Assembly: GCA_040007135.1 (NCBI GenBank)
Contig: JBDTVO010000001.1
Location: forward strand, 1 to 37,963
Source: Devosia sp.
Lineage (GTDB): Bacteria > Pseudomonadota > Alphaproteobacteria > Rhizobiales > Devosiaceae
Direction of reading: 5' to 3'
Length of the DNA stretch: 37,963 nt
The notes under the pieces were generated by a model that worked only from the letters and a program-made list of their open reading frames with translations, made no database searches and was not told the origin of the DNA. Shown in pieces: positions 1,598 to 23,223 of the stretch (position 1 is the stretch's first letter; each line of letters starts with the position of its first letter). The translations under genes were made by a program, and so were the position numbers.

Positions 1598-1609
1598 GAG
1601 GGAGCGGCC

Positions 1610-2638: not shown

Positions 2639-2742
2639 GGCGGAGATTCCCCTTGTTCTCGTGGATGGAGTGAAATCGACATTGGCGGCGCCGTCAACAG
2701 CCCGGACCGGCGGGAGAGGCAGCGATCTGGGCGGAATGGGCA

Positions 2743-3735: not shown

Positions 3736-3749
3736 CGCGAACCCCTCCG

Positions 3750-3781
3750 ATGCACACTCCCGCGTGTCGCGGGTGTTGCAT
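3750..3781 (-). other. Imperfect hairpin just upstream of the trypsin gene SD
   Basis: ATGCACACTCCCGCG-TGT-CGCGGGTGTTGCAT inverted repeat (+ strand letters). Confidence 0.4.
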
Positions 3782-3880
3782 ACGCCGAGCCCCTGCCCGC
3801 GCATTGCACCATCCTGAACAGTGCTTTAGCCGAAAATCGGTCGGAATCATCTTTTCTTTGCGGCGACTTCTCTCCTAGAA

Positions 3881-9109: not shown

Positions 9110-10029
9110 TTGGGCTGCCTCGTCAGCCACTGGATGGGCAGCACGCAGACGATGACCAGCACCATGAGGACGACGGCCAGCGCCGAGGCGAGCCCGACCT
9201 GGCGGTGGGCGAAGGCGAGCCGGTAGATCTCGAGGCCGGGGACGGTGGTCTGGATACCGGGACCGCCGCCGGTGGCGATATAGACGATGTCAAAGCTGGC
9301 GAGCGCGGCGATGACGGTGACGGTGACGCAGACGCCGATCTCCTGGCGGAGGCCGGGCAGCGTGATCCAGCGGAATTCGCTCCAGGCGGAGGCACCGTCG
9401 AGCTTGGCCGCCTCGTAGAGGCTGGGGTCGATGCGGGCGATGCCGGTGACCAGCAGCATGGTGCACAGGCCAAGCAGCACCCACGCGCCGATGATGCCGA
9501 CGGCGGGCAGCGCGAAATCGAAATCGCCGAGCCAGCCGCGGGTGATGCCGCCGAGGCCGATGAGGTTGAGCGCCTGGTTGACGACGCCGTTGCTGGCAAA
9601 CATCCAGGTCCAGGCGATGCCGGCGGCGACCAGCGGGATGACCTGCGGGATGAACAGGATGGTGCGGGCGGTGGTGCCGAAGGCGCCGCTCAAATGATTG
9701 CGGATGGCCGAGGCGACGCCGAGGCCGATGAGGATGGGAATGAGGGTGAAGTAGATGGCGAGCTGGAAGGCATTGCCGAGGATTTGCAGGAAATCGCTCT
9801 CGCTCAGCACCACGAGGTAGTTGGAGAGGCCCTTGAACTGGGCCTTGCCGATGCCGTCCCAGCGGAGCAGCGAATAATAGACCGACATGCCGATGGGGAC
9901 GAGCACGAAGGCAGCGTAGAAGGCGAGCGCGGGGACGATGAAGGCCCACGCCACAACGACGCCGCGACCCCTCTGGGAGAGAAGGGGCCGCGACGCCGAT
10001 GGCAGGCTATGTGGCTCGGCGATCGTCAT
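9106..10029 (-). CDS. Carbohydrate ABC transporter permease (MalF-like)
   Basis: TM segments, FKGLSNY, and EAA loop LYEAAKLDGASAWSEFRWITLP. Confidence 0.93.
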   Translation of the reverse strand: MTIAEPHSLPSASRPLLSQRGRGVVVAWAFIVPALAFYAAFVLVPIGMSVYYSLLRWDGIGKAQFKGLSNYLVVLSESDFLQILGNAFQLAIYFTLIPILIGLGVASAIRNHLSGAFGTTARTILFIPQVIPLVAAGIAWTWMFASNGVVNQALNLIGLGGITRGWLGDFDFALPAVGIIGAWVLLGLCTMLLVTGIARIDPSLYEAAKLDGASAWSEFRWITLPGLRQEIGVCVTVTVIAALASFDIVYIATGGGPGIQTTVPGLEIYRLAFAHRQVGLASALAVVLMVLVIVCVLPIQWLTRQPK

Positions 10030-10056
10030 ATCGAAGACGCTGCCACAGTTTTCCGG

Positions 10057-11358
10057 CTAGCGCGAAAGTTCCTTGACGTATTCGGCCTGCACGCTCTTGA
10101 GCAGCCCGGCCGCGTCCTGGCGTCCACCGACCATCTTCTGCAGCTCCGGCGTCCACGCCTCGGCGTAGATGGCGCCGGTGGCGTTGGCGATGAAGTCCAT
10201 GGCGCCATTGTCCTTGGCGATGGTGGTGCCGGCGGCGAGAGTCTCTTCGGTGACCGAGCCCGCCGTCACCGCCGGCATGGCGAGGTCAACCGGACCGCCC
10301 GGGTTGGAGCCGCCGATGGCGACATCGATCTTGCGCGCCTCAGCATTGGTTCCGACCCAGTTGAGGAAGAAGGCGGCGCAATCGGCGTTCTTGGCGTTGG
10401 CGCCGATCCCATAGGTCAAGGGCGCCGACATAGCGGCGTGCTTGCCGCCGGCAATTGCGGGCGGCATCAGGAAGAACCCGACATTTCCAGCCATCACCTT
10501 GTCGAGGTTGCCCGACTCCCAGTCGCCGTTGAACAGGAACAAGCCGTCGCCATCGTGGAAGCGGCCATTGGCGGTCGCGTAGTCCACCGAGTTGATGTCG
10601 TCCTGGAAGTAGCCGGCCTTGATCCACTGCTCGAGATGCTGCGTGGCGGTCAGATTGGTCGGCGTGTCGATGTCGGCGCCCTTGCGCTGGAAGATCCAGT
10701 CATTGACGGCACCGGGATCGCCATACGACCCCATCAGGTTCTGCAGCGGAAAGGTCAGACCAACGACTGGCTTGTTCCAGATGATGATTGGCGGAATGCC
10801 GGCGGCCTTGGCCTTGGCCATCAGGTCTTCGAGCTCGGCGACGGTCTCGGGCGGCTTGGTCATGCCGATCTTGGCGGCGAGGGCCTTGTTGTAGAAAATA
10901 CCGGTCATCGAGTAGTTGAGGCCCATGGCGTAGAGCGAACCCTCGCCACGCGGGCTGCCGCCGTCGGCGACGCGGTTCTGCGCCAGCTGGGCAGGCGGGT
11001 ATTTGTCCCAGCCCAGATCGGTGGCGTCCTGATCGAGATTCTTCAGCAGTCCGTCCTTGACCAGGTCGCTGATCGAGGGGAGCCGGATGAGGTCGGGGGC
11101 GTTGTCGCCGGCCAGCACGCGCGGACTGTTTTCCATCAGCGTCGCGAACTGGTCTTCCTTGATGTTGAAGGTGACGTTCGGGAACTGCTTGGTGAACTCC
11201 TTTGAGAGCTCGGTGGGCAGCGGGAAGCCGGTCTCGAAATACGAGTTGAGCACCACCGGGCCGGTGCCGCAGCTTGGCGCCGCGTAGGCAGCGCCGGCGG
11301 TTGCCGACATAAGGGCGGCAGCCAACAGGGTCAGTTTTGCAGTGTTTGGCACGTTCAA
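10057..11358 (-). CDS. Carbohydrate ABC transporter substrate-binding protein (CUT1 type); start is TTG 11358 or GTG 11352
   Basis: GAGGAGG SD, signal peptide ending AYA, FTKQFPNV...APDLI, and GIFYNKALAAKIG..PPETVAEL. Confidence 0.9.
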   Translation of the reverse strand: MNVPNTAKLTLLAAALMSATAGAAYAAPSCGTGPVVLNSYFETGFPLPTELSKEFTKQFPNVTFNIKEDQFATLMENSPRVLAGDNAPDLIRLPSISDLVKDGLLKNLDQDATDLGWDKYPPAQLAQNRVADGGSPRGEGSLYAMGLNYSMTGIFYNKALAAKIGMTKPPETVAELEDLMAKAKAAGIPPIIIWNKPVVGLTFPLQNLMGSYGDPGAVNDWIFQRKGADIDTPTNLTATQHLEQWIKAGYFQDDINSVDYATANGRFHDGDGLFLFNGDWESGNLDKVMAGNVGFFLMPPAIAGGKHAAMSAPLTYGIGANAKNADCAAFFLNWVGTNAEARKIDVAIGGSNPGGPVDLAMPAVTAGSVTEETLAAGTTIAKDNGAMDFIANATGAIYAEAWTPELQKMVGGRQDAAGLLKSVQAEYVKELSR

Positions 11359-11406
11359 CTGTTCCTCCTCAGTTTGGACGTTGGTTTCGTCGTTTGGTAT
11401 TCGTCG

Positions 11407-11424
11407 TGCTAAATCCATTTAGCA
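11407..11424. promoter_or_regulatory. Putative LacI-family operator, copy 1
   Basis: TGCTAAAT-CC-ATTTAGCA: perfect 8-bp arms, identical to the arms at 13810-13827. Confidence 0.85.
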
Positions 11425-11445
11425 CCGCCCCGGGGTGATGGTCAA
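11417..11445 (-). promoter_or_regulatory. Putative internal sigma70 promoter for the ABC transporter genes
   Basis: The minus strand reads TTGACC-N17-CTAAAT, similar to the rhizobial CTTGAC...CTATAT consensus. The -10 overlaps the operator. Confidence 0.55.
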
Positions 11446-11501
11446 TTGCCCTCCCGGGTGTCGAGCCAGCGGCACATGCGAGGCCGCCGTGAAATCTTGT
11501 T

Positions 11502-12725
11502 CTAGCTATTGGCGACAGTCATGGCTCCCTGGTCGACGAGGCAGAGGCGCAGCGCGTCGATGATGCGCGTGGCGCGGAGATCGCCGCCGCCCTGCATGAA
11601 ATGGGTGATGAAGCCGAAGCCGATCCCGAGCCCCGGTTCGGCAAAGCCGCACTGGCCGCCGGCGCCGTCGTGGCCGAAACCGCGGCCCGTGACGAAGCGG
11701 CGGGTTTCGGAATCGAGCTGGAAGCCCATGCCCCAGCGCGACCAGGGGGGCGGGACGGGAAACACCGGCGGGCCCTCGCTCTCGACGACGGTGAGCCGCT
11801 CGACCGTGGCCGGCTGCAGCAGCCGCCTGCCGCCGGTGTCGGCGACCGTTGCCGACCAGATCTTGGCCAGGGCACGGGCCGACATGATGCCCCCTGCCCC
11901 CGGGATTTCGGCGGCCCACAGCCGCTGGTCGTTGAAGCCGCCGGCCGGCTCGGCGAGCGTTGGCGGCAGGGCGGTCCCAAGGGTCGCGGCGCGCTCGCTC
12001 CAGTCGACGGCGCCAGGCGGGCGCGAGGCCGCGGCGTCCGCCAGCTGACGGCGAAACGCCTCACTGGGCGTGAGGTGAGCGACGCGAGGCATCTCCTTGG
12101 CGGGCAGGCCGATCCAGGCATCGACTCCGAGCGGGCCGGTGATCGATTCGGCGAACAGTTGCCCGACCGTGCGGCCGGTGACACGGCGCAGCACCTCGCC
12201 GACCAGCCAGCCGTGGGTGATGGCGTGATAGGCGTAGGCTTCGCCCGGCGGCCAAAGCGGCTCTTGCTGCTCCAGCTTGCGAACCATGCCGGCCCAGTCG
12301 GTGATCTCAGCGGTGGTGATGTCGAGAGTTGGCGCCGAGAGGCCGGCGCGGTGGGCCAGCAGATGGCGGACCTGGGTTCCGGCTTTGCCGTTCGCCGCAT
12401 ACTCGGGCCAGTAGCGGCTCACCGGCGCGTCCGGATCGAGGCGGCCGGCCTCGATCAACTGGGCGGCGAGGATCGACACCAGCCCCTTGGTGCAGGAGAA
12501 GACGACGCCGATCGTGTCCTCCTGCCACGGACGTGAGTCGCGCGCGTCGGCCGTGCCTCCCCAGAGATCGGCAATCGGCTCGCCGCCGCGCCAGATGGAG
12601 AGCGCGGCACCGCTGCGCGGATCGTCGAAGGCGGCAGCGAAGGCTTCGGCGACGGGCGCGAAACCGGGCGCGACGTGGCCGTGGATCGTGGTGCCGATGC
12701 TGCGCGGGGCGCTCAAGGTGCTCAC
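11502..12725 (-). CDS. Serine hydrolase, beta-lactamase-related family VIII esterase (EstB-like)
   Basis: GTG at 12725 overlaps the upstream TGA. SxxK (FSCTKG), LLAHRAGL, PG...AYHA and FGHDGAGG motifs. No signal peptide. Confidence 0.9.
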   Translation of the reverse strand: MSTLSAPRSIGTTIHGHVAPGFAPVAEAFAAAFDDPRSGAALSIWRGGEPIADLWGGTADARDSRPWQEDTIGVVFSCTKGLVSILAAQLIEAGRLDPDAPVSRYWPEYAANGKAGTQVRHLLAHRAGLSAPTLDITTAEITDWAGMVRKLEQQEPLWPPGEAYAYHAITHGWLVGEVLRRVTGRTVGQLFAESITGPLGVDAWIGLPAKEMPRVAHLTPSEAFRRQLADAAASRPPGAVDWSERAATLGTALPPTLAEPAGGFNDQRLWAAEIPGAGGIMSARALAKIWSATVADTGGRRLLQPATVERLTVVESEGPPVFPVPPPWSRWGMGFQLDSETRRFVTGRGFGHDGAGGQCGFAEPGLGIGFGFITHFMQGGGDLRATRIIDALRLCLVDQGAMTVANS

Positions 12726-13690
12726 GGCACCACCGTCGCGGGTTCGAGGACAAGGAGATTGCCATCGGCGTCGAGGCCAAGCGGCATCGGATCGCTGATG
12801 GTGCCGGGGAAGCTGCCGTCGGCGGCGCGCATCGAAAAGGCCAGCAACACCCAGCGGCCTTCGGGATCCTTGACGGCCCGCCCGGCATACCAGGTCTCGG
12901 GCAGGAGCAGGCGGGCGGCGGCGATATCGAACGGGCCCACCGGCCCGGCCGCCGGCGCCCACCAGATGCCGCCGATGCCACCGGCGTTCGGCCCGGCAAG
13001 ACGCGGCGCGTCACAGCAGAAGAGCACAATGATACGGCCGCCGATCTCGATCACCTGCGTGACCTCGATATGCGCGAAGCCCGAGTGCGGTTGGCTCAGC
13101 GGCGGGCGCACCTGCCAGGTCTCCAGATCGGTCGACACGGCGTGGCCGACGACGCCGCGGTCGAACTCGTCGCCGGCGTTAGCGCGCGCCGTGACCAGCA
13201 TGTGCCAACCCTCGCCGTCCGGGTCGGCAAACACCCACGGATCGCGCCAGGCTTCCTCCGGCCACGCGGAGGTGCCGAGGGTCTCGTACCAGCGCGCATC
13301 GGCGCGGACGATCGGACCGGGTAGCTTGGTCCAGGTGAAGAGATCGGGCGAGGTGGCGACGCCTATGGTCTCGATGTTGGTGGCAGCATCGGGCGACAGA
13401 AAGTGCGCGCCGGTGTAGAACAGGCGCCAGAGCCCATCGGGGCCGCGAAGGACGCTGCCGGTCCAGGTGGCGGTGTCGTCGAAGGCCCCCGCCGGGCTGG
13501 GCGCGAGCGCCACCGCGTGCTCGGTCCAGTGCACGAGGTCGCGCGAACTGGCGTGGCCGATGCGGGCGTTGCGGTGACGGAGGTTGGCGTCGCCCAGCGC
13601 CTTGGGCGCGTGGAGGAAGAAGCAGTGGTAGAGACCGGCATCTTCGGCCAGCCAGAAATCCCAGACCCAGGCGTCGGCAAGCGCAAGCAC
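12722..13690 (-). CDS. Glycoside hydrolase clan GH-J (GH32-like) beta-fructofuranosidase, propeller domain only
   Basis: GTG at 13690 with GGAGGAG SD. Nucleophile WVWDFW, IGHASSRDLVHW, WTGS, WRDP and probable acid/base HIEV. Confidence 0.85.
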   Translation of the reverse strand: MLALADAWVWDFWLAEDAGLYHCFFLHAPKALGDANLRHRNARIGHASSRDLVHWTEHAVALAPSPAGAFDDTATWTGSVLRGPDGLWRLFYTGAHFLSPDAATNIETIGVATSPDLFTWTKLPGPIVRADARWYETLGTSAWPEEAWRDPWVFADPDGEGWHMLVTARANAGDEFDRGVVGHAVSTDLETWQVRPPLSQPHSGFAHIEVTQVIEIGGRIIVLFCCDAPRLAGPNAGGIGGIWWAPAAGPVGPFDIAAARLLLPETWYAGRAVKDPEGRWVLLAFSMRAADGSFPGTISDPMPLGLDADGNLLVLEPATVVP

Positions 13691-13808
13691 GATAGCTCCT
13701 CCGCCACGGGCCGGCCGCCTGTGGCGGGGTTCGTGGATCGCTGTTCTATCGGAGCCGACGCAGGGATGACCACCTGCCGCAACGTCTCCGTCGACAGCGT
13801 TGGCTCCT

Positions 13809-13838
13809 TTGCTAAATTGATTTAGCATAGATTGTCAA
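13809..13838 (-). promoter_or_regulatory. Putative sigma70 promoter of the GH32-like operon
   Basis: Perfect TTGACA on the minus strand at 13838-13833. A weak -10 (TAGCAA) lies 18 nt downstream, and the operator covers the spacer and -10. Confidence 0.55.
13810..13827. promoter_or_regulatory. Putative LacI-family operator, copy 2
   Basis: TGCTAAAT-TG-ATTTAGCA in the divergent region between the GH32-like gene and lacI. Confidence 0.85.
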
Positions 13839-13930
13839 TGCGGCCAGCGGCGCTACGCGATGGACGCAGCATACAATTTGTTGAGGCCGGAAGAGACAGT
13901 GTATGACAGGCGGGACGGTCGGGGCCGAGC

Positions 13931-14971
13931 ATGAACGCAAGAGCTGAAGCCAAGAAGCGCGCGACGCTTGCCGATGTTGCACGGCTGGCGGGACTGTCGC
14001 GCACCGCGGCCTCGATGATCCTCACCGGCAAACCCGATACGCGGCTGTCGGCGGAGGCGCATGCGCGGGTGATGGCGGCGGCCGACCAGCTTGGCTACCG
14101 GCCCAATATGGCGGCGCGCAGCCTGCGCACCGAGCGCACGCAGTCCTTCGCGTTTATCTCGGACGTGGTGGCGACGACCCGCTTTGCGATGGGGCTGATC
14201 CGCGGCGCGCTGGAGGCGGCGGAAAAGGCCCAGCACGTGATGCTGGTGCTCGAGACCGGTGGCGAGCCGGCGCGCGAGAGCGAGGCGATTGCGGCGGCGC
14301 TTGATCGACAGGTCGATGGCATCATCTTTGCGGCGATGCGGGCGCGCGAAGTGTTCGTGCCCGACATGCGGCTCGGCACACCGGTGGTGATGCTGAATGC
14401 CACCAACCCGCGCTTTCCGGTCTCGGTGCTGCCCGATGAGGCGGCGGGCGGCAAGGCGGCGGTCGAGCTGCTGTGGGCCGCAGGCATCCGCAGCGGCATC
14501 GGGCTGTTGGGCCAGAGCGACGTGGCGGAAGCGGGCCTCTTTCGATCAGAGACGGTGTCGCGGCGCGTCGCCGGCATCCGCTCGCAGATGCAGAAGCGGC
14601 GGTTGAGCTTTGTGGCCGAGGAGTCGTGCTGGAACTGGGAGCCGGACGAAGGCTACAAACTCGCCAAGCGCATGCTGAAACGCGGGCACGGGATCAGGGC
14701 ACTGCTGTGCATGAACGACCGGCTGGCGTTCGGCGCCTACCAGGCCGCGGCGGAACTGGGGATATCGGTGCCCGACGAGGTCGCCATCGTGTCGTTCGAC
14801 AATGACGAGATTGCCGCGTACCTGCGGCCCGGCCTCACCACCATCGCACTGCCGCACGAGGAGATGGGTCGGCGCTCGGTCAACCTGCTACTCGAGGGCG
14901 GCGCCAAAGGCGAGCATCTGGTGCCGATGCCGGTGATCGAGCGCGGCTCGGTGGGCAAGGTCAAGCGTTAG
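13931..14971 (+). CDS. LacI family transcriptional regulator
   Basis: TLADVARLAGLSRTAAS HTH, LGYRPNMAARSL hinge, CMNDRLAFG, SFDN and PGLTTIALP. Confidence 0.95.
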   Translation: MNARAEAKKRATLADVARLAGLSRTAASMILTGKPDTRLSAEAHARVMAAADQLGYRPNMAARSLRTERTQSFAFISDVVATTRFAMGLIRGALEAAEKAQHVMLVLETGGEPARESEAIAAALDRQVDGIIFAAMRAREVFVPDMRLGTPVVMLNATNPRFPVSVLPDEAAGGKAAVELLWAAGIRSGIGLLGQSDVAEAGLFRSETVSRRVAGIRSQMQKRRLSFVAEESCWNWEPDEGYKLAKRMLKRGHGIRALLCMNDRLAFGAYQAAAELGISVPDEVAIVSFDNDEIAAYLRPGLTTIALPHEEMGRRSVNLLLEGGAKGEHLVPMPVIERGSVGKVKR

Positions 14972-15774
14972 ACGCCAGCGGTGGCGGGGCCCATGACGCC
15001 CGCTTCGGCGGCCGAGAGCAGCGAGCGGAGCTCGGCACCGCCGGCCATCAGCTCGATGACTTCGCCGATCGGCTTGTCGGCCTTGTCGAAGCTGGCCGAC
15101 ATTTCGCCGCGGCGCATGACGACGAAATGATCGCCGACCGAATAGGCATGGTAGGCGTTGTGGGTGATGAACACCACGGCAACGCCGCGCTGGCGGACGG
15201 TGTGGATCAGCTTCAGCACGGTGGCGGATTCGCGGACGCCGAGCGCCGCCGTCGGTTCATCCAGAACCAGCACGCGGGCGCCGAAATGCAGCGCCCGGGC
15301 GATGGCCAGCGCCTGTCGTTCGCCGCCCGAGAGGGTGCCGACGAGTTGGCCCGCGTCGTGCACGCGGCTGATGCCGAGTTCGCGCAAGCCGGCGAGAGCA
15401 ATGCGGCCAGCTTCCTCGATATCGAGGCGGCGGAACGGGCCGCGCCCCTTGGTCGGCTCGGCGGCGAGGACGAAATTGCGGGCGACGCTCATCAGCGGCA
15501 GGGTGCCGATCTCCTGATAGACCGTGGCGATGCCGCGCTCGCGGGCGTGGCGCGGCGAGACGAGGTGGGAGACTTCGCCGTCGATCAGCACGTCGCCACT
15601 GGAAGGCCGTTCGACGCCGGTGAGAATCTTGATCACGGTGGATTTGCCGGCGCCGTTTTCACCGAGGAGGCAGAGCACCTGCCCGGCCTCGACGCTCAGC
15701 GAAAGATCGTTGACCGCCTGGACGCCCTGGAAGTGCTTGGAAATACCGCGCAGCTCCACGATCGGGGTGGCCAT
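14968..15774 (-). CDS. Sugar ABC transporter ATP-binding protein (single NBD)
   Basis: ATG at 15774. Walker A GENGAGKS, signature LSGGERQ, Walker B VLVLDEPT and H-loop FITHN. Confidence 0.94.
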   Translation of the reverse strand: MATPIVELRGISKHFQGVQAVNDLSLSVEAGQVLCLLGENGAGKSTVIKILTGVERPSSGDVLIDGEVSHLVSPRHARERGIATVYQEIGTLPLMSVARNFVLAAEPTKGRGPFRRLDIEEAGRIALAGLRELGISRVHDAGQLVGTLSGGERQALAIARALHFGARVLVLDEPTAALGVRESATVLKLIHTVRQRGVAVVFITHNAYHAYSVGDHFVVMRRGEMSASFDKADKPIGEVIELMAGGAELRSLLSAAEAGVMGPATAGV

Positions 15775-15776
15775 GT

Positions 15777-16835
15777 CTAGCGCCCCATCGCGAACTGGCG
15801 GAGCCGGGCATTGGCGAGCACGGCGAGGAGGAGCAGGAGGCCGATGAAGAGGTCGGTCAGCTCGGAGTTCCAGCCGAGAAAGAAGACGCCCATCGAGACG
15901 ATGCCGTAGGTCATGGCGCCGAACACGGTGCCGAGCAGCGAGCCGTAGCCGCCGGTCAACAGCAGGCCGCCGATGACGCAGGCAGCGATGCCGGAAAAGA
16001 CGTATTGGGCGCCGAGCGTCACGCTGGCGTTCTGGAAGGTGTAGGTTTCCATGACGCCGACAAAGGCGGCGCCGATCGAGGTACAGAGGAAGAGGATCAT
16101 CTTGACGCGATTGGTCGGAACGCCGGCGAGGCGCGCGGTATCGAGGCTGCCGCCAGTGGCGTAGATCCAGTTGCCGAAGGGCGTGCGCTGCATCACCCAG
16201 ATGGCGACGCCGGCGATGATGATCCAATGCACCAGCGCGATGTTGAATTCGTACCACTTGGCAGCGAAGACGAAGTTGGCCGAGCCGGTGGCGACAGCCG
16301 AGATGCTGCTCGAGCCGGTGATGCCGATCGAGATGCCGAGGGCGCCGCCGGTGACCATGAACATGGTCGACAGGGTGACGATGAAGGACGGCAGCTTGGT
16401 GCGGACGACGAGGAAGCCGTTGAGCAGGCCAACCGCTACGGCGGCGAGGAAGGCGAAGCCGACGCCGATCCACGGATCAAGGCCGAAATAGCCGGTGCAG
16501 ATGCCGACAATGATGGACGCTGCGCCGACCATCGAGCCGACGGAGAGATCGAACTCGCCGGCGATCATCAGCATGGCGATGGGGATGGCCATGATGCCGA
16601 GGTCGGCCGCCGTATCGAGCCAGTAGGCGGTGCCAAGCGGCGACAGAAATCCGCTCTTGCCGGCGAGCACGGCGAAGAACAGGAACACGGCCAGCGCCGA
16701 AAGAATGCCGCCCGTTTCCGGCCGCGTGATGAGGCCGGCGAAGACAGAACGACGGCGCGTGGCGCCATCGTCCGATTTGGTGTTGGCAGGGGCCTCGGAA
16801 GATGACCCAGCGGCCGCCGATTGCGTATTCGTCAT
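15777..16835 (-). CDS. Sugar ABC transporter permease (RbsC-like)
   Basis: GEFDLSVGS, LPSFIVTL, TPFGNWIYATGG and IAACVIGG..L.GGYG motifs. Confidence 0.93.
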   Translation of the reverse strand: MTNTQSAAAGSSSEAPANTKSDDGATRRRSVFAGLITRPETGGILSALAVFLFFAVLAGKSGFLSPLGTAYWLDTAADLGIMAIPIAMLMIAGEFDLSVGSMVGAASIIVGICTGYFGLDPWIGVGFAFLAAVAVGLLNGFLVVRTKLPSFIVTLSTMFMVTGGALGISIGITGSSSISAVATGSANFVFAAKWYEFNIALVHWIIIAGVAIWVMQRTPFGNWIYATGGSLDTARLAGVPTNRVKMILFLCTSIGAAFVGVMETYTFQNASVTLGAQYVFSGIAACVIGGLLLTGGYGSLLGTVFGAMTYGIVSMGVFFLGWNSELTDLFIGLLLLLAVLANARLRQFAMGR

Positions 16836-16869: not shown

Positions 16870-17868
16870 TTACTTCGATCCGATCACGTTCGCATATTGC
16901 TCGAACACGCCCTTGATCTTGTGGATGTTCGCCGCGTCGACGACGCTTGGGCCGGTCGCCACTTCGCCCACCGGCGCGATGCCGTATTTGGCGTAGTGAT
17001 AGGCGAACAGCACGCCGTAGTAGCCGTCGAGATACGGCTGCTCGTTGATGAGGAACAGCATCTTGCCGCTCTCGATCTGCTCGAGCGCGACGGCCGACAC
17101 TTCCATGGTGCCAACCGCGACCTTGCCGGTGAGCTGCACGGTTTCGACGGCGGCGGTGGCGGCAACGCCGACCAGCGCGTTTTCGGTGAAGACGCCGTCG
17201 ATGGTCGGATGGCTCTGGAGGTAGGCGCCGATGTTGCGGGTGACCTTGTTGAGATCGGTCGAGTCAGCGGTCGGCAGTTCGAGGTTTTCCGAGGCGATGC
17301 CGAGTTCCTTGGCGCGGCCGCCGAGGGCTTCGCAGATCGACTGCAGGTACGGATTGCCCGGCACGTTGATGACGCAAAGGATGTTCTTGGCGCCGCCACC
17401 CTGCAGCCGCTCGGCTGCGATGATGCCGACGTCGAGCGGATCCTGGCCGACGAAGCCGAAGGCGCCGGTGCTCTTCCAGGTCGCCCGGCCGGACTGGTTC
17501 ACATAGACCGGAATGCCGGCGGCCACGGCTTGCTTGATGAGAGGATCGACGACGGTCGAAATGAAGCTGCCGACGACGATGGCGTCGGGATGCTGGGCGA
17601 TCGCGGCCTGCATGGTGCGGGCCGACGAGGCCTCGATGTCGTGCTCGTCGATCGGGATGTAGTTGAGATCGACGTTGAGGTCCTTCGCCGCATCGTTGGC
17701 GCCCTGGTAGAGCGGCGGGAAGAACGAATCGTAGAGTGGGCCCGAAACGAACGCGATCTTGATCTTCGCGTCCTGGGCCATGGCCGGGACGGTCGCAAGA
17801 CCGCCAAGGGCCGCCGCCAGCGCCAGCGCGCCAAGGGCCGTCGTCAATGAGCGTAGCGCTCTCGTCAT
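16870..17868 (-). CDS. Sugar ABC transporter substrate-binding protein (RbsB-like)
   Basis: ATG at 17868 with GAGGAGG SD, signal peptide ending AMA, FF..LYQGANDAAKDL and INEQPYLDGY. Confidence 0.92.
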   Translation of the reverse strand: MTRALRSLTTALGALALAAALGGLATVPAMAQDAKIKIAFVSGPLYDSFFPPLYQGANDAAKDLNVDLNYIPIDEHDIEASSARTMQAAIAQHPDAIVVGSFISTVVDPLIKQAVAAGIPVYVNQSGRATWKSTGAFGFVGQDPLDVGIIAAERLQGGGAKNILCVINVPGNPYLQSICEALGGRAKELGIASENLELPTADSTDLNKVTRNIGAYLQSHPTIDGVFTENALVGVAATAAVETVQLTGKVAVGTMEVSAVALEQIESGKMLFLINEQPYLDGYYGVLFAYHYAKYGIAPVGEVATGPSVVDAANIHKIKGVFEQYANVIGSK

Positions 17869-17953
17869 GTGAATTCCTCCTCTGTGGATACCCCGAATGC
17901 GGTGCATTGGCCCCGCATTCCTCCTCATGCTCGTCTGCCGTTTTCGGGCGTTG

Positions 17954-17964
17954 TTGTCCGACAA
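17954..17964. promoter_or_regulatory. Putative GntR/FadR-type operator, box 1
   Basis: Perfect palindrome TTGTC-C-GACAA in the divergent region next to a FadR-type gene. Confidence 0.7.
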
Positions 17965-17984
17965 GCTGGCCCGATGTAATCTTC

Positions 17985-17995
17985 TTCTCAGACAA
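17985..17995. promoter_or_regulatory. Putative GntR/FadR-type operator, box 2
   Basis: TTCTC-A-GACAA, one arm mismatch, 31 bp (about 3 helical turns) from box 1. Confidence 0.55.
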
Positions 17996-18059
17996 AGGTC
18001 AATCGCTGGACGAACCGTCAGGAAGCGACTAAATCAGCGACGGCAAGGCGGAGGAGACT

Positions 18060-19859
18060 ATGGCGCTGTTGCTCGATCGGCGGATGCTGGGCCGCGCGGA
18101 TGGCATCATCGACGCCGGCTTGTCTGAGAAAATGGCCGAAGTCGCGGCCGCTCAGATGCATCCGGATACCGGCGAATTCAGCATCGCCATGCTGCGCGCC
18201 TGGCTCGACGAATATGGCGCGATGAGCGCTCGCGGCCACGAGATCGCGGTCGAGACGGCAACGCGGACCTTCGACACGCCCACCGGCCGCGTCACGACCC
18301 GGATCTACAATCCGGGCGAGACGACGCTGACCATCATCTTCCTGCACGGCGGCGGCTGGTCGTTCGGCACCATCGACACGCACGACCACATCACGCGCTG
18401 GCTCGCCGCCGAAACGGGTGGGCAGGTGATCTCGGTCAACTACGACCTGGCGCCGGAGCACCCCTACCCTGCCGCGATGAAGCAGGCGGGGGCGGTGATC
18501 TCGGCGATCATGGGCGAGTCGGGACGGCACCCGGTGTTTGTCGCCGGCGATTCTGCGGGCGCCAACGTCGCGGTGACGGCAATCCTCGACTTGCCGGCGG
18601 CGCTGCGGAAGCGGCTCGCCGGGTTCATCTCGATCTATGGCGCCTATGCGCCGGAGATGACGCTGTCGTCGCACCGGCTCTACGGCGACGGGCGCTTCGG
18701 GCTTTCCGAAGCGCAGATGCGCTGGTTCTGGAACCTCTACGCGCCGCACGTGCCGCCCGAGCATCGCGCCAGGATGCTGAGCCCGATCGGGGCCGACCTC
18801 AGCGACTTTCCACCGACGCTCTGCATCGGCGCCGAGTGCGACCTGCTGCTTGACGACACCCTCGCCTTTTATGGCGAACTCGCCAAGGCGGCGGTCGACG
18901 TGACGCTGTCGCTGTGGTCGAGCCTGCCGCACGGCTGCATGCATTTCGTCGGCGTCATCGACAGTGTCACGGCGGCCGCCGGATCGATCGTGCAGTTCGT
19001 GGACGCGCACCGGCAGCGGGCCCTCCACCTCGAGACGGTGAAGAGCGAGGCACGGCCGGTCGCCGCCACGCCGCCGCCGGGCGAGACGATCGTCGACGTC
19101 GAGCCGCTGTTCACCGGCGGGCGGTCGCGCCTCCACGGTTCGCTGACGCACCGGATCGCCGCCGACATCATCAAGGGCGTGCTGGCGCCGGGGGCGCTGC
19201 TGCCCAACGAGGACAAGGCGAGCGCCTCCTTCGGCGTGTCGCGCAGCGCCTATCGCGAGGCCATCCGGACGCTGGCAGCAAAAGGCCTGGTGCTGGCGCT
19301 GCCCAAAGTGGGGACCAAGATCGCGCCGCGCACAACCTGGCGCATCCTCGACCCCGATGTGCTGGCCTGGCATTTCGAACTGGAGCCGACCGACGAATTC
19401 GTGCGCAACCTGTTCGAATTGCGCAAGATCGTCGAGCCGAGCGCCGCAGCGCTGGCGGCAACGCGGCGCGATGACGGCGAGCTGTCGCGGCTGGCCGATT
19501 CACTGGCCCGCATGGCGCGGATGAACCCGCGCACCGGCGGCTGGCTAAATGCCATCATCGCCTTTCACGAGGAGCTGCTGCTGGCCGCCGGCAATGAAGC
19601 CATTGCGTCGCTATGGCCGGCGGTACAGACAACGCTCCGCTGGTCGGTGAAGCTGCAGATGATGCTGCCGACGCTGTCGCTGGCGCACGATCCGGTCGCC
19701 GACCACGCGCGGGTGTTCGAAAAGATCGCCTCACAGAACGCCGCCGGAGCGCTGGAAGAGATGGCGCTGCTGATCGACTCGGCGCTGCAGGACACGCTCA
19801 ACAACAGCCGGCGGGTAAAGACGGCGCGCGCCGCGCTCGAGGGCGCCCGCGCGTCGTAG
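18060..19859 (+). CDS. Fusion protein: HSL-family alpha/beta hydrolase (esterase) + GntR/FadR regulator (wHTH + FCD)
   Basis: GGAGGAG SD and a single 599-aa ORF. N-half: FLHGGGW, YDLAPEHPYP, GDSAG, ECDLLLDD, PHG. C-half: PGALLPNE...FGVSRSAYREAIRTLAAKGLV...PKVGTKI, LFELRKIVEP, AFHEELL..AGN. Confidence 0.9.
   Translation: MALLLDRRMLGRADGIIDAGLSEKMAEVAAAQMHPDTGEFSIAMLRAWLDEYGAMSARGHEIAVETATRTFDTPTGRVTTRIYNPGETTLTIIFLHGGGWSFGTIDTHDHITRWLAAETGGQVISVNYDLAPEHPYPAAMKQAGAVISAIMGESGRHPVFVAGDSAGANVAVTAILDLPAALRKRLAGFISIYGAYAPEMTLSSHRLYGDGRFGLSEAQMRWFWNLYAPHVPPEHRARMLSPIGADLSDFPPTLCIGAECDLLLDDTLAFYGELAKAAVDVTLSLWSSLPHGCMHFVGVIDSVTAAAGSIVQFVDAHRQRALHLETVKSEARPVAATPPPGETIVDVEPLFTGGRSRLHGSLTHRIAADIIKGVLAPGALLPNEDKASASFGVSRSAYREAIRTLAAKGLVLALPKVGTKIAPRTTWRILDPDVLAWHFELEPTDEFVRNLFELRKIVEPSAAALAATRRDDGELSRLADSLARMARMNPRTGGWLNAIIAFHEELLLAAGNEAIASLWPAVQTTLRWSVKLQMMLPTLSLAHDPVADHARVFEKIASQNAAGALEEMALLIDSALQDTLNNSRRVKTARAALEGARAS
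18120..18130. promoter_or_regulatory. Putative GntR/FadR-type operator, box 3 (inside the fusion gene)
   Basis: TTGTC-T-GAGAA, the exact reverse complement of box 2. Confidence 0.4.
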
Positions 19860-19865
19860 CGCGGG

Positions 19866-22595
19866 CTACCTGGCGGGGAGCAACGCGGGTTCGGCTGCGG
19901 CGGCGTCTTCGCGGGGACCGGCCGGCACCGCGGCGAGTGTGAAGCGGAACAGCGCGCCGCCCCCTGGCGCCTCTTCGACCCAGATACGGCCGCCGTGCTG
20001 GGCGACGATGCGGCGCGAAATGGCGAGGCCGAGGCCGGCGCCCTCGGGCTTGCCGTTCATGGTGTCGCCGAGTTGGCGGAAGCGCTCGAAGACGATGTCG
20101 CGATGTTTCGGCGGAATGCCGGGTCCATTGTCGGCGACCGCCAGCTCGAACTGGTCGCCGGCCCGGCGCAGCGACAGCTCGGCGCGGCCGCTCCCGGGCG
20201 TCGCGAACTTGGCGGCATTGCCGAGCAGGTTGATCACCACCTGCACCAGTCGATCGTGATCGCCGATCACCGGCGCCGCGCGCACATCGATGTGTGTCGT
20301 CAGTGCGACGCCGCGCGTGGCAAAGACCTGCTGCATCGCCGCGGTCGCGTCGCGGGCGGCGTGGACGAGATCGACGGGCGCGAGGGTTGCAGGAGCGCCG
20401 CCCTCGCTGATCCGCGACAGGTCAAGCAACTGGCCGATGAGCCGGGTCAGCCGCTCGGACTCGCCGACGACAACGCGCAGGAACTCCTGGCGATCGCTGT
20501 CGGAAATGTCGGCGTGGTCGCGGAGGATTTCGGAGAAGGCGCGGATCGAGGCGAGCGGGGTGCGCAGCTCGTGGTTGACGGTGGCGATGAAGTCGTCCTT
20601 CAGTCGGTCCAGCTCCTGCAGGCGCTCGTTGGCCTGCTGCAACTCGCCGGTGGCGGCCTCGAGCGCCCTGTTGGTTTCGATCAGGCGCGAGGCTTCGTCG
20701 AGAATGCCCATCACTTCCTCGACGCCGAGCGGCTGCTCCTCGACGATGGCGCCGACCAGGGCTCGCGCCGACGAGGCGCCGATGACGCTGGCCAAGAGGC
20801 GCTCGTAGTAGAGCACGGTCTCGGCGTCGGCGTTGATGGCGGTGGCGGGATCGAGGCCGCGCTCGCGGGCCCAGATGTCGAAGGCGGCGGCGGTGCGCTC
20901 GCGGCCGAGAAAGCGCGAGGCCAGCGACTGCAGGTCGGGGATGAGCGCCGTACGCCGCCAGATGCGCGCCGCCTCGGCAGGATTGTCGGCATCGAGAAAC
21001 AGCGCCGCGTGGGCGCGGTCGACGGGACGCTGGCGGCCCAGCATCGAGACGACCAGCAGCGAGCCGAGATTTGCCAGCAGCGACCAGAACGTCGCGTGGG
21101 TCACCGGATCGAGGCTGGTGAGGCCGAACAACGCATAGGGCCGCAGCAGGTCGATACCGAAGGGACCGACGGCGATGAAGCCGGCCACCGGAGAGACCTG
21201 GGTGAAGGACGGAATGAACAGGGTATAGCACCAGACGGCGAAACCCAGCGAGATGCCGGCGATGGCGCCGGCCTTGGTGGCGCCGCGCCAGAACAGCCCG
21301 GCCAGCAGAGCCGGGGCGAACTGGGCGACCGCGACGAACGACATCAGCCCGATCGACACCAACGTCACCTGGGCATTGTCGTGGCGCATGTAGAGATAAC
21401 CGAGCGCCATCACCGCGACCATGACGCCGCGGCGGACCCAGAGCAGCAGGCGGGTGAGATCGGTGCGCTGCTCGAGGCCGAATGGCTTCACCCGCAGCAG
21501 CGCCGGCATGACGACATCGTTGCACACCATGATCGACAAGGCCGTGGTCTCCACCACCACCATGCTCGCCGCCGCCGAAACGCCGCCGAGGAAGGCGACC
21601 AGCGCCAGCACCGGCTGGTTGGCGAGCAGCGGCAGGGCGAGGACGAGATTGTCGGGGTTGGCCGTGCCGGGCAGCAGCAGCCGGCCGGCCATGGCGATGG
21701 GCAGGACGAAGATGTTGATCAGCAGCAGATAGAGCGGGAACTGCCAGACGGCGCGATCGAGATGCCGCTCGTTGACGTTTTCGACCACCATCACCTGGAA
21801 CTGGCGCGGCAGGCAGAAGCTCGCAAGCAGCGCGAGGAACGTCATTCCAACCCAGCTGAAGCCGTAGTGCTCGGGCGAGCGGGCGAAGATCTGCGCGACC
21901 TCGGGGACGGTGGCGGCCTGGGTGAAGAGATCGCCGAAGCCGTGGAAGAGGCCATAGACGACGAAGAGGCCGATGATGGTGAGGCCGATGAGCTTGAGGA
22001 TCGATTCTGCCGCGATGGCGACGACCATGCCGGGGTGGTGCTCGCCGGGGTGGATGGAGCGGCTGCCGAACAGCATGGCGAAGACGGTGAGTATGGCCGC
22101 GGCCCACAGCGATCCATCGAACCAGAACGGCTGGTTGGCCGGATCGGGCGAGGTCAGGGTGAGCGCCGCAAAGCCGTTCGACACCGATTTCAACTGCAGC
22201 GCGATGTACGGCACGAGGCCGATGACGGCGATGATCGTGACCAGCGCGGCGACACCGCCGGAGCGGCCGAAGCGGGCACCGATGAGATCGGCGATCGAGG
22301 TGATCTGGTTGGCCTTGCTGATCCGCAAGATGCGTCGCAGCAGCAGCGGGCCGAGGCAGAAGGCGAGCGTCGGGCCGAGATAGATGGGGAGAAAATCAAA
22401 GCCGTTGAGGGCGGCGCGGCCGACGCCGCCGTTGAACGTCCACGAGCTGCAGTAAACGGCCAGCGACAGCGTATAGACGAGGCTCGAGCCGGCGATACGA
22501 CCGAGGCGCTTCGAGCCGCTCTCGACCAGCCAGGCGATGGCGAAGAGGACGAGCAGATAGGCGACGGCGACGCCAAGGACCAGCGGCTGGCTCAT
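19866..22595 (-). CDS. SLC5 (sodium:solute symporter)-STAC-histidine kinase sensor (CrbS/CbrA-like), without PAS or receiver domain
   Basis: SSS domain (LSLAVYCSSWTF.G.VG, PYIALQLK, CLPRQFQV), STAC-like helices (LASRFLG..ERLLASVIGASSARALV), H-box VNHELRTPL, N-box NLLGNAAKF, DNGPGI and GAGLGLAIS. Confidence 0.92.
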   Translation of the reverse strand: MSQPLVLGVAVAYLLVLFAIAWLVESGSKRLGRIAGSSLVYTLSLAVYCSSWTFNGGVGRAALNGFDFLPIYLGPTLAFCLGPLLLRRILRISKANQITSIADLIGARFGRSGGVAALVTIIAVIGLVPYIALQLKSVSNGFAALTLTSPDPANQPFWFDGSLWAAAILTVFAMLFGSRSIHPGEHHPGMVVAIAAESILKLIGLTIIGLFVVYGLFHGFGDLFTQAATVPEVAQIFARSPEHYGFSWVGMTFLALLASFCLPRQFQVMVVENVNERHLDRAVWQFPLYLLLINIFVLPIAMAGRLLLPGTANPDNLVLALPLLANQPVLALVAFLGGVSAAASMVVVETTALSIMVCNDVVMPALLRVKPFGLEQRTDLTRLLLWVRRGVMVAVMALGYLYMRHDNAQVTLVSIGLMSFVAVAQFAPALLAGLFWRGATKAGAIAGISLGFAVWCYTLFIPSFTQVSPVAGFIAVGPFGIDLLRPYALFGLTSLDPVTHATFWSLLANLGSLLVVSMLGRQRPVDRAHAALFLDADNPAEAARIWRRTALIPDLQSLASRFLGRERTAAAFDIWARERGLDPATAINADAETVLYYERLLASVIGASSARALVGAIVEEQPLGVEEVMGILDEASRLIETNRALEAATGELQQANERLQELDRLKDDFIATVNHELRTPLASIRAFSEILRDHADISDSDRQEFLRVVVGESERLTRLIGQLLDLSRISEGGAPATLAPVDLVHAARDATAAMQQVFATRGVALTTHIDVRAAPVIGDHDRLVQVVINLLGNAAKFATPGSGRAELSLRRAGDQFELAVADNGPGIPPKHRDIVFERFRQLGDTMNGKPEGAGLGLAISRRIVAQHGGRIWVEEAPGGGALFRFTLAAVPAGPREDAAAAEPALLPAR

Positions 22596-22613
22596 GGCGC
22601 GCTCATCGCCGGC

Positions 22614-22832
22614 TCACGAGGAACCACCGTCGCCCTCGGGCGGAGCGGCGGCGCGGGTTACCAGCGCGACACAGACGATAACCAGGGCCCAGGCGCCGAA
22701 CAGATAGAGGTAGAGCACCGGCCAGCCGAACACGGTGCCGCCGAACAGATTGAGCACCGGCGGATTGAACAGGACGAGGCCGAGGACGAAGAGGCCAATC
22801 ATGCGGTCGCGGCGGGCGGTGCGGCGGAGCAT
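22614..22832 (-). CDS. Small two-TM membrane protein preceding the SLC5 kinase
   Basis: LFVLGLVLFNPPVLNLF..VFGWPVLYLYLFGAWALVI. It starts 1 nt after the receiver stop and ends 18 nt before the kinase start. Confidence 0.8.
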   Translation of the reverse strand: MLRRTARRDRMIGLFVLGLVLFNPPVLNLFGGTVFGWPVLYLYLFGAWALVIVCVALVTRAAAPPEGDGGSS

Positions 22833-22833
22833 C

Positions 22834-23223
22834 TCAGGCGCGCTGCGGCTGGCGCGGGCTGGCGAGGACGCCAGCCACGCAATCGACGACGTCGCTGATG
22901 GCGAAGGGCTTTGTCACATAGGCGTCGGCGCCGGCGGCGAGACCCTTGCTGTGATCGGCGTCGCCGCCGCGGGCTGTGAGCATGATGATGCGAACGTCGT
23001 CGTAGTCGGACGAGGCGCGCAGCTTGCGGCAGACATCGTAGCCATTGGCGCGCGGCATCATCAGGTCGAGGAGGAGGACATCGGGCGTCGCCTCGGCGAT
23101 GGCCGCGAGGGTCGCCTCGCCGTCCGCCGCAACGCGCACGTCGTAGCCTTCGCGCCGCATCAGGAAGGTGAGGGCGCGGAGGATATTGGGGTCGTCGTCG
23201 GCGATGAGGATGGAGGCGGGAAT
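22834..23223 (-). CDS. Stand-alone response regulator receiver protein (apparent ATT start)
   Basis: Frame reads ATT-PASILIADDDPNILRALTFLMRREGYD...LLLDLMMP...IMLTA...YVTKPF. A GGAG SD lies 6 nt before ATT 23223. No in-frame ATG/GTG/TTG lies between it and the upstream TAG (23286-23284). Confidence 0.85.
   Translation of the reverse strand: MPASILIADDDPNILRALTFLMRREGYDVRVAADGEATLAAIAEATPDVLLLDLMMPRANGYDVCRKLRASSDYDDVRIIMLTARGGDADHSKGLAAGADAYVTKPFAISDVVDCVAGVLASPRQPQRA

What the first reader, a model, noticed from the sequence alone, without database searches (positions are those of the whole stretch)
18060..19859. Esterase-transcription factor fusion: HSL-family hydrolase joined to a FadR-type repressor
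Seen: one uninterrupted 599-aa ORF. Its N-terminal half has an apparently intact HSL-type esterase (HGGG, GDSAG Ser, Asp in ECDLL, His in PHG). A Pro/Ala linker (EARPVAATPPPGE) follows, then a complete GntR wHTH + FCD. I see no obvious internal ATG + SD for the regulator half. Known: GntR/FadR regulators normally begin with the wHTH and carry no enzyme domain, and I do not recall this architecture. Inference: a one-component 'trigger enzyme' that hydrolyses an imported ester or lactone and senses the released acid via FCD, controlling the divergent sugar ABC operon.
Basis: partly seen in the sequence, partly recalled or inferred. Interest (0 to 1): 0.85.

Follow-up and report, generated by a model that had tools for sequence, protein, structure and literature searches.

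The report
Esterase fused to a sugar-uptake repressor
This gene encodes one protein that joins an ester-cutting enzyme domain to a DNA-binding repressor domain, a fusion conserved across many bacteria, and it likely switches a neighbouring sugar-type importer on when an acylated sugar arrives and then likely removes that signal by cutting the ester itself.

Summary
Confirmed and extended. The 599-aa ORF is one gene: an HSL-type esterase (S165-D261-H291), a variable linker and a DgoR-like FadR regulator. All 120 best homologues listed carry the three domains in one chain, the triad and DNA-reading residues are near-invariant, and both halves form one clade: a single old fusion, not a lost stop. 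It is rare (2 of 400 order genomes) and travels with a divergent three-gene CUT2 importer (24 of 31 GTDB loci). A FadR-type palindrome, TTGTCNGACAA, sits in the importer's predicted promoter spacer and again inside the fusion's own codons 21-24, at near-whole helical turns (possible looping). The sister importer clade is also paired with an esterase, of an unrelated fold (15 of 16 loci), so the cargo is likely an O-acylated sugar or cyclitol. No paper on the architecture was found, and the scan had not noted it on other DNA. It works like known enzyme-repressor fusions but is a new architecture; substrate, inducer and coupling are untested.

The parts
18060..19859 (+). Esterase-FadR fusion gene, 599 aa (P0001)
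18060..19025 (+). HSL-type alpha/beta-hydrolase with cap (aa 1-322): HGGG at 18345-18356, S165 at 18552, D261 at 18840, H291 at 18930
   Evidence: VIA Z about 35, about 300 residues aligned to HSL esterases
19026..19094 (+). Variable Pro/Ala-rich linker, no separate start with a ribosome-binding site
   Evidence: (pLDDT under 50 at aa 326-339)
19146..19322 (+). GntR winged helix-turn-helix; S394, R395, R399, E400, K416, G418 invariant in 121 of 121
19410..19775 (+). FCD effector/oligomerisation domain, remodelled: R455, H503, N512, W528 kept, metal Asp replaced by I499 (19554-19556), fusion-specific W495 and Q533
18050..18056 (+). Ribosome-binding site GGAGGAG of the fusion gene
   Evidence: sequence
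17985..17995 (.). Predicted operator O1 (TTCTCAGACAA), in the spacer of the predicted importer promoter
   Evidence: at most one mismatch in 20 of 24 loci; shuffle rate 0.005
17954..17964 (.). Predicted operator (perfect TTGTCCGACAA), 31 bp from O1, just downstream of the predicted -10
18120..18130 (.). Predicted operator O4 inside the fusion's coding sequence (codons 21-24, TTGTCTGAGAA)
   Evidence: TTG at this Leu in 37 of 40 Leu-Ser cases, against 193 of 1869 Leu codons elsewhere
17974..18002 (-). Predicted promoter of the importer operon: TTGACC (18002-17997), 17 nt, TTACAT; the TTGACN..TAC pattern recurs in orthologous loci
   Evidence: not reported by the strict consensus scan
16870..17868 (-). 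CUT2 sugar-type solute-binding protein, inositol/rhizopine-binding lineage, lacking the Arg seen in 4RU1
15777..16835 (-). CUT2 ABC permease
14968..15774 (-). ABC ATPase (single domain; start from a codon model)

Best explanation
The gene encodes one 599-residue protein joining an HSL-type esterase with a complete catalytic triad to a DgoR-like FadR regulator that likely represses the divergent sugar-type ABC importer and would likely be released from DNA by the intact imported ester, which its own esterase half would then cut. Step 1 (sites shown, binding inferred): regulator dimers sit on TTGTCNGACAA sites in the importer's promoter spacer, next to it, and inside the fusion's own codons 21-24, perhaps closing a DNA loop. 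Step 2 (inferred): basal import brings in an O-acylated monosaccharide or cyclitol. Step 3 (inferred): the remodelled FCD pocket, which has lost its metal Asp and a Lys and gained a Trp, binds this uncharged ester and lets go of DNA. Step 4 (inferred): the tethered esterase removes the acyl group; the freed sugar or inositol enters pathways encoded elsewhere, which is why no catabolic gene is conserved in the module; and the loss of inducer restores repression. The result would be a four-gene module that imports, cuts and self-limits.
For: Triad kept: S165 119 of 120, D261 121 of 121, H291 121 of 121, and in all 10 further fused loci checked, at 45-65% identity. One clade for each half (esterase stem support 100, regulator stem 99; FastTree). 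Orthologous binding protein next to the fusion in 24 of 31 GTDB loci; 6 more carry a different sugar-type ABC importer; one contig is too short. In a 400-genome sample of the order, the fusion's esterase half and the orthologous binding protein occur in the same 2 genomes, side by side. O1 in 20 of 24 loci against a shuffle rate of 0.005; the motif fits the FadR TKGT-N3-ACMA type (PMC4494728 passage). Sister-clade binding proteins have an SGNH esterase within 1.5 kb in 14 of 16 loci and a beta-lactamase-fold serine hydrolase with SxxK in a 15th, across 7 families; the nearest plasmid hit lies with a tannase/feruloyl esterase. The lower tier shows SGNH in 0 of 6 loci and inositol- or rhizopine-type genes in 8 of 8 extended loci. 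Effector pocket: acidic residue in 90 of 90 stand-alone relatives, 0 of 121 fusions.
Against: No activity, binding or expression data. The substrate class rests on gene neighbours only. R455, H503 and H549 (110 of 121) are kept, so a carboxylate could still bind, and DgoR D146A kept reduced galactonate binding (PMC7674646 passage). Two short-contig fragments inside the regulator clade (P0253, P0254) have Glu at this position, and L042 has lost R455. The motif is shared with other FadR proteins: the two strongest sites in the genome lie beside other FadR genes, so the assignment rests on conserved position. 6 of 31 loci use other importers, so the cargo may differ across the family. The model does not fix the relative position of the halves (pTM 0.58). 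Related genomes are not independent counts.
Confidence: 0.48

Rival explanations
1. The esterase domain is itself the sensor. Substrate in its active site, or the acyl-enzyme state, changes its contact with the regulator half or breaks an esterase-mediated dimer-of-dimers that loops the promoter operator to the in-gene operator. The FCD pocket would be mainly structural.
For: O1-O4 spacings fall in six classes (115-118, 127, 135, 145-150, 156-157, 178 bp) near 11, 12, 13, 14, 15 and 17 helical turns (34 loci; p about 0.01 on six class means). Fusion-specific conserved residues lie on both halves. In sister loci a separate SGNH esterase sits beside a GntR whose FCD has lost the Arg, Asp and both His (L145, L148, L018; no Pfam FCD hit), or beside ROK regulators lacking the EIGH and zinc motifs. 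Precedent: the HSL esterase Aes inhibits MalT by direct contact (PMC10427625 passage).
Against: The FCD pocket residues remain near-invariant, as if they still bind something. The linker is long and variable (32-53 aa in 86 parseable sequences). The spacing classes were defined after seeing the data, and most loci belong to two clades. The fold match to Aes is a tie among many HSL esterases (26-27% identity; 136 bits against a cut-off of 389). A stand-alone esterase (P0132) is nested in the clade.
Confidence: 0.2
2. One reading: the esterase hydrolyses an imported ester or sugar lactone, and the FCD senses the released acid, as DgoR senses galactonate.
For: The closest solved regulator is DgoR (E 2e-21). 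Close stand-alone relatives lie in oxidative arabinose/galactose (aldonate) loci in 4 of 6 examined (L119, L172, L174, L175). R455, H503 and H549 are kept.
Against: The metal Asp is lost in 121 of 121 fusions and the Lys is replaced by Gln in 121 of 121. No aldonate dehydratase or kinase is conserved beside the fusion; dehydratases appear only in single loci (L039, L043). The sister importers go with SGNH esterases, not with lactonases.
Confidence: 0.18
3. The two halves work independently. The fusion only ties esterase levels to an autoregulated repressor whose inducer is unrelated to the esterase substrate.
For: Flexible, variable linker; stand-alone esterase P0132 with 3 cluster members; sister systems do the job with separate genes.
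Against: The fusion is kept down to about 45% identity with few true splits, and the effector pocket changed along with the fusion. Apparent split forms share 90% clusters with full-length fusions or end in out-of-frame tails.
Confidence: 0.12
4. The ORF is an artefact of a lost stop codon or a mis-assembly of two genes.
For: The source is a fragmented draft genome (295 contigs, 81% complete); some database records are split.
Against: 120 of 120 listed homologues and 28 of 31 GTDB loci are fused in one frame, including named strains Rhizobium sp. BK313, Kaistia hirudinis DSM 25966 and Devosia equisanguinis CIP 111628; a contig bridges the linker without difference.
Confidence: 0.01

Closest known systems
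Trigger enzymes that fuse a DNA-binding domain to an active enzyme: PutA, BirA, NadR, RbkR (PMC5397151, passages read)
   Same: One chain holds a metabolic enzyme and a DNA-binding repressor, and controls genes for the same compound; RbkR also controls transporters.
   Different: Those have a bare DNA-binding domain and use the enzyme as sensor, in vitamin or amino-acid metabolism. Here a hydrolase is added in front of a complete FadR regulator that keeps its own effector domain, in carbohydrate uptake.
E. coli DgoR and alphaproteobacterial arabinose/galactose FadR regulators (PDB 7C7E; PMC7674646, passages read)
   Same: wHTH plus FCD, R102/H150/H195 equivalents kept, TTGT-N3-ACAA-type operator overlapping the promoter.
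   Different: Preceded by a 322-aa esterase; D146 equivalent is Ile; Q173 and R179 align to Leu in the pairwise alignment; no aldonate pathway genes conserved next to it.
E. coli Aes-MalT (PMC10427625, passages read)
   Same: An HSL-family acetyl esterase coupled to a regulator of a sugar ABC importer; Aes is among the top fold matches.
   Different: Aes and MalT are separate proteins and MalT is a STAND activator; P0001 is not an Aes orthologue (136 bits against a cut-off of 389).
GntR subfamilies with enzyme-like sensor folds: HutC (chorismate-lyase fold) and MocR (aminotransferase-like)
   Same: GntR wHTH in one chain with an enzyme-derived fold.
   Different: There the enzyme fold is C-terminal and replaces the effector domain. 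Here it is N-terminal, extra, and keeps a full catalytic triad.
myo-Inositol and rhizopine CUT2 importers (PDB 4RU1, called a verified myo-inositol transporter in PMC10747050; NCBIfam NF052284)
   Same: Best sequence and fold match of the neighbouring binding protein; same binding protein-permease-ATPase order in related loci.
   Different: 30% identity, 157 bits against a cut-off of 420, the Arg of 4RU1 ESRC is Ile/Val, and no iol or moc genes lie beside it; an esterase goes with it instead.

Membership tests
Bacterial HSL (family IV) esterases | HGGG oxyanion motif | tested here: met
   aa 96-99, 118 of 118 ungapped sequences; HGGA in three divergent loci
Bacterial HSL (family IV) esterases | GDSAG nucleophile with Asp and His of the triad | tested here: met
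   S165 119 of 120, D261 121 of 121, H291 121 of 121
Bacterial HSL (family IV) esterases | alpha/beta-hydrolase core with N-terminal cap | tested here: met
   Model m67d5b0115201 aligns over about 300 residues, Z about 35, rmsd 2.4-2.6
Bacterial HSL (family IV) esterases | Ester hydrolysis | not testable with these tools
   needs an assay
Aes acetyl esterase (PRK10162) | Score above the equivalog cut-off | tested here: not met
   136 bits against 389
FadR subfamily of GntR | GntR wHTH followed by a helical FCD domain | tested here: met
   PF00392 51.5 bits, PF07729 60.2 bits, both above cut-off
FadR subfamily of GntR | wHTH at the N-terminus of the protein | tested here: not met
   wHTH starts at aa 363, behind the esterase
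FadR subfamily of GntR | Palindromic TKGT-N3-ACMA-type operator near the regulated promoter | tested here: met
   TTGTCNGACAA, 3 matches in 37,963 bases against 0.41 expected, all within 180 bp; 20 of 24 loci. Pattern only; binding not shown.
DgoR (galactonate repressor) | Metal site D146/H150/H195 | tested here: not met
   I499/H503/H549; no acidic residue in 121 of 121 fusions
DgoR (galactonate repressor) | dgo catabolic genes in the regulated locus | tested here: not met
   only the ABC importer is conserved
Trigger enzymes (PutA, BirA, NadR, RbkR type) | Enzyme and DNA-binding domain in one polypeptide | tested here: met
Trigger enzymes (PutA, BirA, NadR, RbkR type) | The enzyme's ligand or catalytic state controls DNA binding | not testable with these tools
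   needs EMSA or reporter tests with active-site variants
Rhizopine importer MocB (NF052284), for the neighbouring binding protein | Score above the cut-off, with moc genes adjacent | tested here: not met
   156.6 bits against 420; no moc or iol genes conserved beside it

The most novel reading that the evidence does not exclude
The esterase is the sensing and bridging subunit of the repressor. It links two FadR dimers into a DNA loop between the importer promoter and an operator written into the fusion's own codons, and turnover of the imported ester opens the loop. The fusion would be the welded form of a wider, undescribed system in which importers of acylated sugars are controlled by esterases that command repressors whose own ligand sites have decayed (a fused HSL esterase with FadR; separate SGNH esterases with a pocket-less GntR or a ROK protein).
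Probability: 0.2. Interest if true: 0.85.

Novelty: new variant of a known kind. Interest (0 to 1): 0.66.

Why it matters
Enzyme-repressor fusions with tested function are few and come from vitamin and amino-acid metabolism. This family adds a hydrolase to a complete FadR regulator and comes with a defined four-gene module, predicted operators and culturable carriers (Rhizobium sp. BK313, Kaistia hirudinis, Devosia equisanguinis). One active-site substitution can therefore separate substrate sensing, product sensing and enzyme-state sensing. It also points to a lineage of importers that is nearly always paired with an esterase, likely a route by which alphaproteobacteria take up acylated sugars or cyclitols, and it shows an effector pocket that changed together with a gene fusion.

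Tried and rejected
Lost stop or frameshift: rejected. Split homologues as the normal state: rejected; P0123 and P0237 come from contigs of the same length and look like one frameshifted gene, P0237 and P0245 share 90% clusters with 612- and 618-aa proteins, and P0124, P0127 and P0135 end in out-of-frame tails. P0132 (328 aa, 3 members) looks like a true stand-alone esterase, but its neighbourhood could not be fetched and no unfused copy appeared in 400 order genomes. Wider regulon: a weight-matrix scan of the genome gave two stronger sites, both beside other FadR genes (C68, C6), so no extra targets were assigned. Aes orthology: rejected. The strict promoter scan found nothing in 17800-18200. 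Expression: no RNA holder listed, which says nothing either way; small-share runs were not used for habitat. Inositol pathway in the host: an iolD-like gene is present (61%) but iolE was not found with one query in an 81% complete genome, so this is uninformative. Only the best 120 of 599 hits were seen. Fold searches of the whole model covered the esterase half only. The careful tree did not finish; a quick tree and FastTree were used. dN/dS was not computed. Literature searches for the architecture and for precedents found no paper on this fusion; the library lacks most subscription journals and no supplements were read.
Full report
Observation. The ORF at 18060-19859 (+) is there as described: 599 aa, a strong ribosome-binding site, Abhydrolase_3 at aa 92-294, GntR at 363-421 and FCD at 451-572, all above Pfam cut-offs. 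The three in-frame GTG codons near the linker have no Shine-Dalgarno. The window is the largest contig of a 2.6-Mb, 295-contig, 81% complete, 66% GC draft genome.

It is a family, not an accident. A protein search returned 599 hits; the best 120 were listed, and all 120 carry the three domains in one chain at 53-83% identity. Automatic pipelines label many of them with both domain names, and the ESM Atlas holds two clusters of 63 and 58 members with this content. A GTDB scan gave 42 loci, of which 31 are this family and 11 are 29-37% matches to the esterase half only. Of the 31, 28 are full length in one frame, two end at contig ends and one (L049) has several frameshifts. Named carriers are mostly Hyphomicrobiales (Roseiarcus, Rhizobium sp. 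BK313, Devosia, Kaistia hirudinis, Bauldia), with two Rhodobacterales bins and one bin labelled Acidobacteriaceae. The gene is rare and patchy: 3 of 24 same-genus genomes and 0 of 16 from other families, 2 of 400 order genomes, 0 of 400 class genomes; some of these are likely the same loci as. Devosia-labelled members fall in four places of the tree, and integrase genes flank L038 and L090, which suggests horizontal spread. In FastTree trees of each half against the nearest stand-alone proteins (29 fusions, 29 esterases, 24 regulators, subsampled), both halves form one group on a long stem (support 100 and 99), with the unfused esterase P0132 and two regulator fragments nested inside. One old fusion with rare later splits fits best.

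Both halves are under constraint. Among 121 proteins the HGGG motif is 118 of 118, S165 119 of 120, D261 and H291 121 of 121; the recognition-helix and wing residues S394, R395, R399, E400, K416 and G418 are invariant; the linker is the most variable part. The triad also holds in ten further fused loci at 45-65% identity. The AlphaFold model has mean pLDDT 87 but pTM 0.58, so the halves are well modelled and their relative position is not. The N-terminal half superposes on HSL esterases over about 300 residues (Z about 35); E. coli Aes is among the top matches, but as a tie at 26-27% identity, and the Aes equivalog score is far below cut-off. The closest solved regulator is E. coli DgoR.

Neighbourhood. 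The only conserved neighbours are three divergently transcribed genes: a CUT2 binding protein, permease and ATPase. The orthologous binding protein (69-85% identity) lies next to the fusion in 24 of 31 GTDB loci. Six others carry a different sugar-type importer (divergent CUT1 in L034, L039, L043; co-directional CUT2 in L040, L041, L046), and L025 is too short to tell. In the 400-genome order sample the orthologous binding protein occurs only in the two genomes that have the fusion, adjacent to it. No catabolic enzyme is conserved in the module.

Operators. TTGTCNGACAA occurs three times in the window with at most one mismatch (17954, 17985, 18120), against 0.41 expected; 1 of 100 shuffles reached three. 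It fits the FadR-type palindrome with three bases between GT and AC (PMC4494728, passages read). The 17985 site lies in the spacer of a TTGACN-N17-TAC-type promoter facing the importer, and this placement recurs in 20 of 24 loci against a shuffle rate of 0.005; the strict sigma-70 scan does not report this promoter. The 18120 site lies inside the fusion's codons 21-24. There the Leu codon is TTG in 37 of 40 Leu-Ser cases among 50 loci, against 193 of 1869 Leu codons elsewhere in the gene, so the DNA sequence itself is likely selected. In the 34 distinct loci with both sites scoring at least 12 bits (of 55 with a parsed start), the distance falls in six classes near 11, 12, 13, 14, 15 and 17 helical turns; a simulation on the six class means gave p about 0.01. 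The classes were defined after the fact, and most loci belong to two clades, so looping is a lead. The motif is not unique to this protein: the two strongest sites in the genome lie beside other FadR genes, and stand-alone relatives have similar sites.

What is imported. The binding protein's best solved match by sequence and fold is 4RU1, described as a myo-inositol transporter (PMC10747050, one passage). It scores below cut-off for the rhizopine family, and the Arg of 4RU1 ESRC is Ile or Val in all 22 orthologues aligned. Its relatives form tiers. The lower tier sits with inositol- or rhizopine-type genes in 8 of 8 extended loci, one of which has an alpha/beta-hydrolase beyond the regulator, and in both plasmid loci opened. 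The nearer sister tier is different: 14 of 16 loci have an SGNH esterase of the Sm23/MsAcT type (names recalled for PDB 4TX1 and 2Q0Q) within 1.5 kb, a 15th has a beta-lactamase-fold serine hydrolase directly downstream, and one (L131) has none. The nearest plasmid hit lies upstream of a tannase/feruloyl esterase. The same transporter lineage is thus paired with esterases of four different families, which is the best evidence that the cargo is an ester and that the fused domain is catalytic. An O-acylated monosaccharide or cyclitol is inferred; the compound is not identified.

What is sensed. Close stand-alone regulators with context lie in oxidative arabinose/galactose loci in 4 of 6 cases and keep the Asp that, with two His, binds the metal needed for galactonate binding in DgoR (D146/H150/H195; PMC7674646, passages read). 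I compared the 121 fusions with 90 stand-alone relatives: 88 hits from P0257 down, plus two more, leaving out two fragments and the higher hits that look like pieces of fusions. The position is Asp 88 and Glu 2 of 90 in stand-alone proteins and never acidic in fusions (Ile 86, Val 23, Leu 4, Met 3, Thr 3, Ala 2). A Lys (78 of 90) becomes Q533 (121 of 121), and a Gly (78 of 90) becomes W495 (120 of 121), one helical turn from I499. R455, H503, N512 and W528 stay invariant, and H549 is kept in 110 of 121. Exceptions: two short-contig fragments in the clade have Glu, and L042 lacks the Arg; and DgoR D146A still bound galactonate weakly. The pocket therefore looks rebuilt for a less charged ligand, not lost. 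In three sister loci the regulator beside the SGNH esterase is a separate GntR whose effector domain has lost the Arg, Asp and both His; in others it is a ROK protein without the EIGH and zinc motifs (motif names recalled). Locus L018 holds both systems side by side.

Mechanism. Shown: the fusion, the intact triad and DNA-reading residues, the conserved importer, the conserved palindromes and the altered pocket. Inferred: repression of the importer and of its own gene, an ester cargo, and the inducer. The shared core, an active esterase on a repressor of this importer, I put near 0.85.

Comparison and novelty. It works like the trigger enzymes PutA, BirA, NadR and RbkR (PMC5397151, passages read) and recalls the control of MalT by the esterase Aes (PMC10427625, passages read). 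It fails the membership tests for DgoR and Aes, and the defining trigger-enzyme property cannot be tested here. A review of alpha/beta-hydrolase domain partners did not mention this fusion in the passages found (PMC11878206), and searches found no paper on it; other papers were seen as listings only, and subscription journals and supplements were not covered. Earlier notes of this scan hold nothing on this DNA or protein and one unrelated GntR-M20 peptidase fusion. Verdict: a real, conserved and, as far as these searches reach, uncharacterised architecture; a new variant of a known kind; interest 0.66.

Noticed in passing
L145:10136-11730, L148:7032-8614, L018:12935-14407: A separate GntR with an intact wHTH but an effector domain lacking the Arg, Asp and both His sits divergently from an SGNH esterase and the sister importer; a candidate for control by a partner protein.
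   Followed up: partly
L146, L147, L149, L150, L152, L153; G000:C15 (L157:6194-11506): SGNH esterase paired with a ROK regulator lacking the EIGH and zinc motifs, beside CUT2 importers; the window's own genome has such a locus with a different binding protein and a fused permease-ATPase.
   Followed up: partly
L018 (G019:C131): One locus holds the most divergent fusion (45%), a co-directional CUT2 importer, an SGNH esterase, a pocket-less GntR and the sister importer, a possible intermediate stage.
   Followed up: partly
window 8240-14971: Next-door LacI-controlled operon with a GH32-like hydrolase, a beta-lactamase-fold serine hydrolase and a CUT1 importer; a second esterase-plus-importer unit, not conserved beside the fusion in other loci.
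   Followed up: no
window 19866-23160: Solute-symporter-like sensor histidine kinase and a receiver protein, convergent with the fusion (CrbS/MxtR-like acetate sensor, label recalled); not conserved in other loci.
   Followed up: no
window 2-3804: A 531-aa ORF open at the contig end with no Pfam match, followed by two trypsin-like proteases on the other strand.
   Followed up: no
L172 (G620:C4): The closest stand-alone regulator found with context lies in an arabinofuranosidase and oxidative arabinose locus with two PF00756 esterases, a hint towards acylated arabinose.
   Followed up: partly
P0132, P0347, P0348: A 328-aa stand-alone esterase nested in the fusion clade, seen on three Logan contigs; neighbourhood unknown.
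   Followed up: partly
L049, L083, L048: L049 has several frameshifts across the module and L083 one near the C-terminus (sequencing error or decay); L048 is labelled Acidobacteriaceae but groups among alphaproteobacterial members (transfer or mis-binning).
   Followed up: no
cluster 2: The database files P0001 in a cluster of unrelated 46-55-aa proteins; likely an index error.
   Followed up: yes
G000:C68:9464 and C6:16615: Stronger copies of the same palindrome lie beside other FadR genes (a multiple-sugar importer and a sugar-acid catabolic locus), so cross-talk between paralogues is possible.
   Followed up: partly
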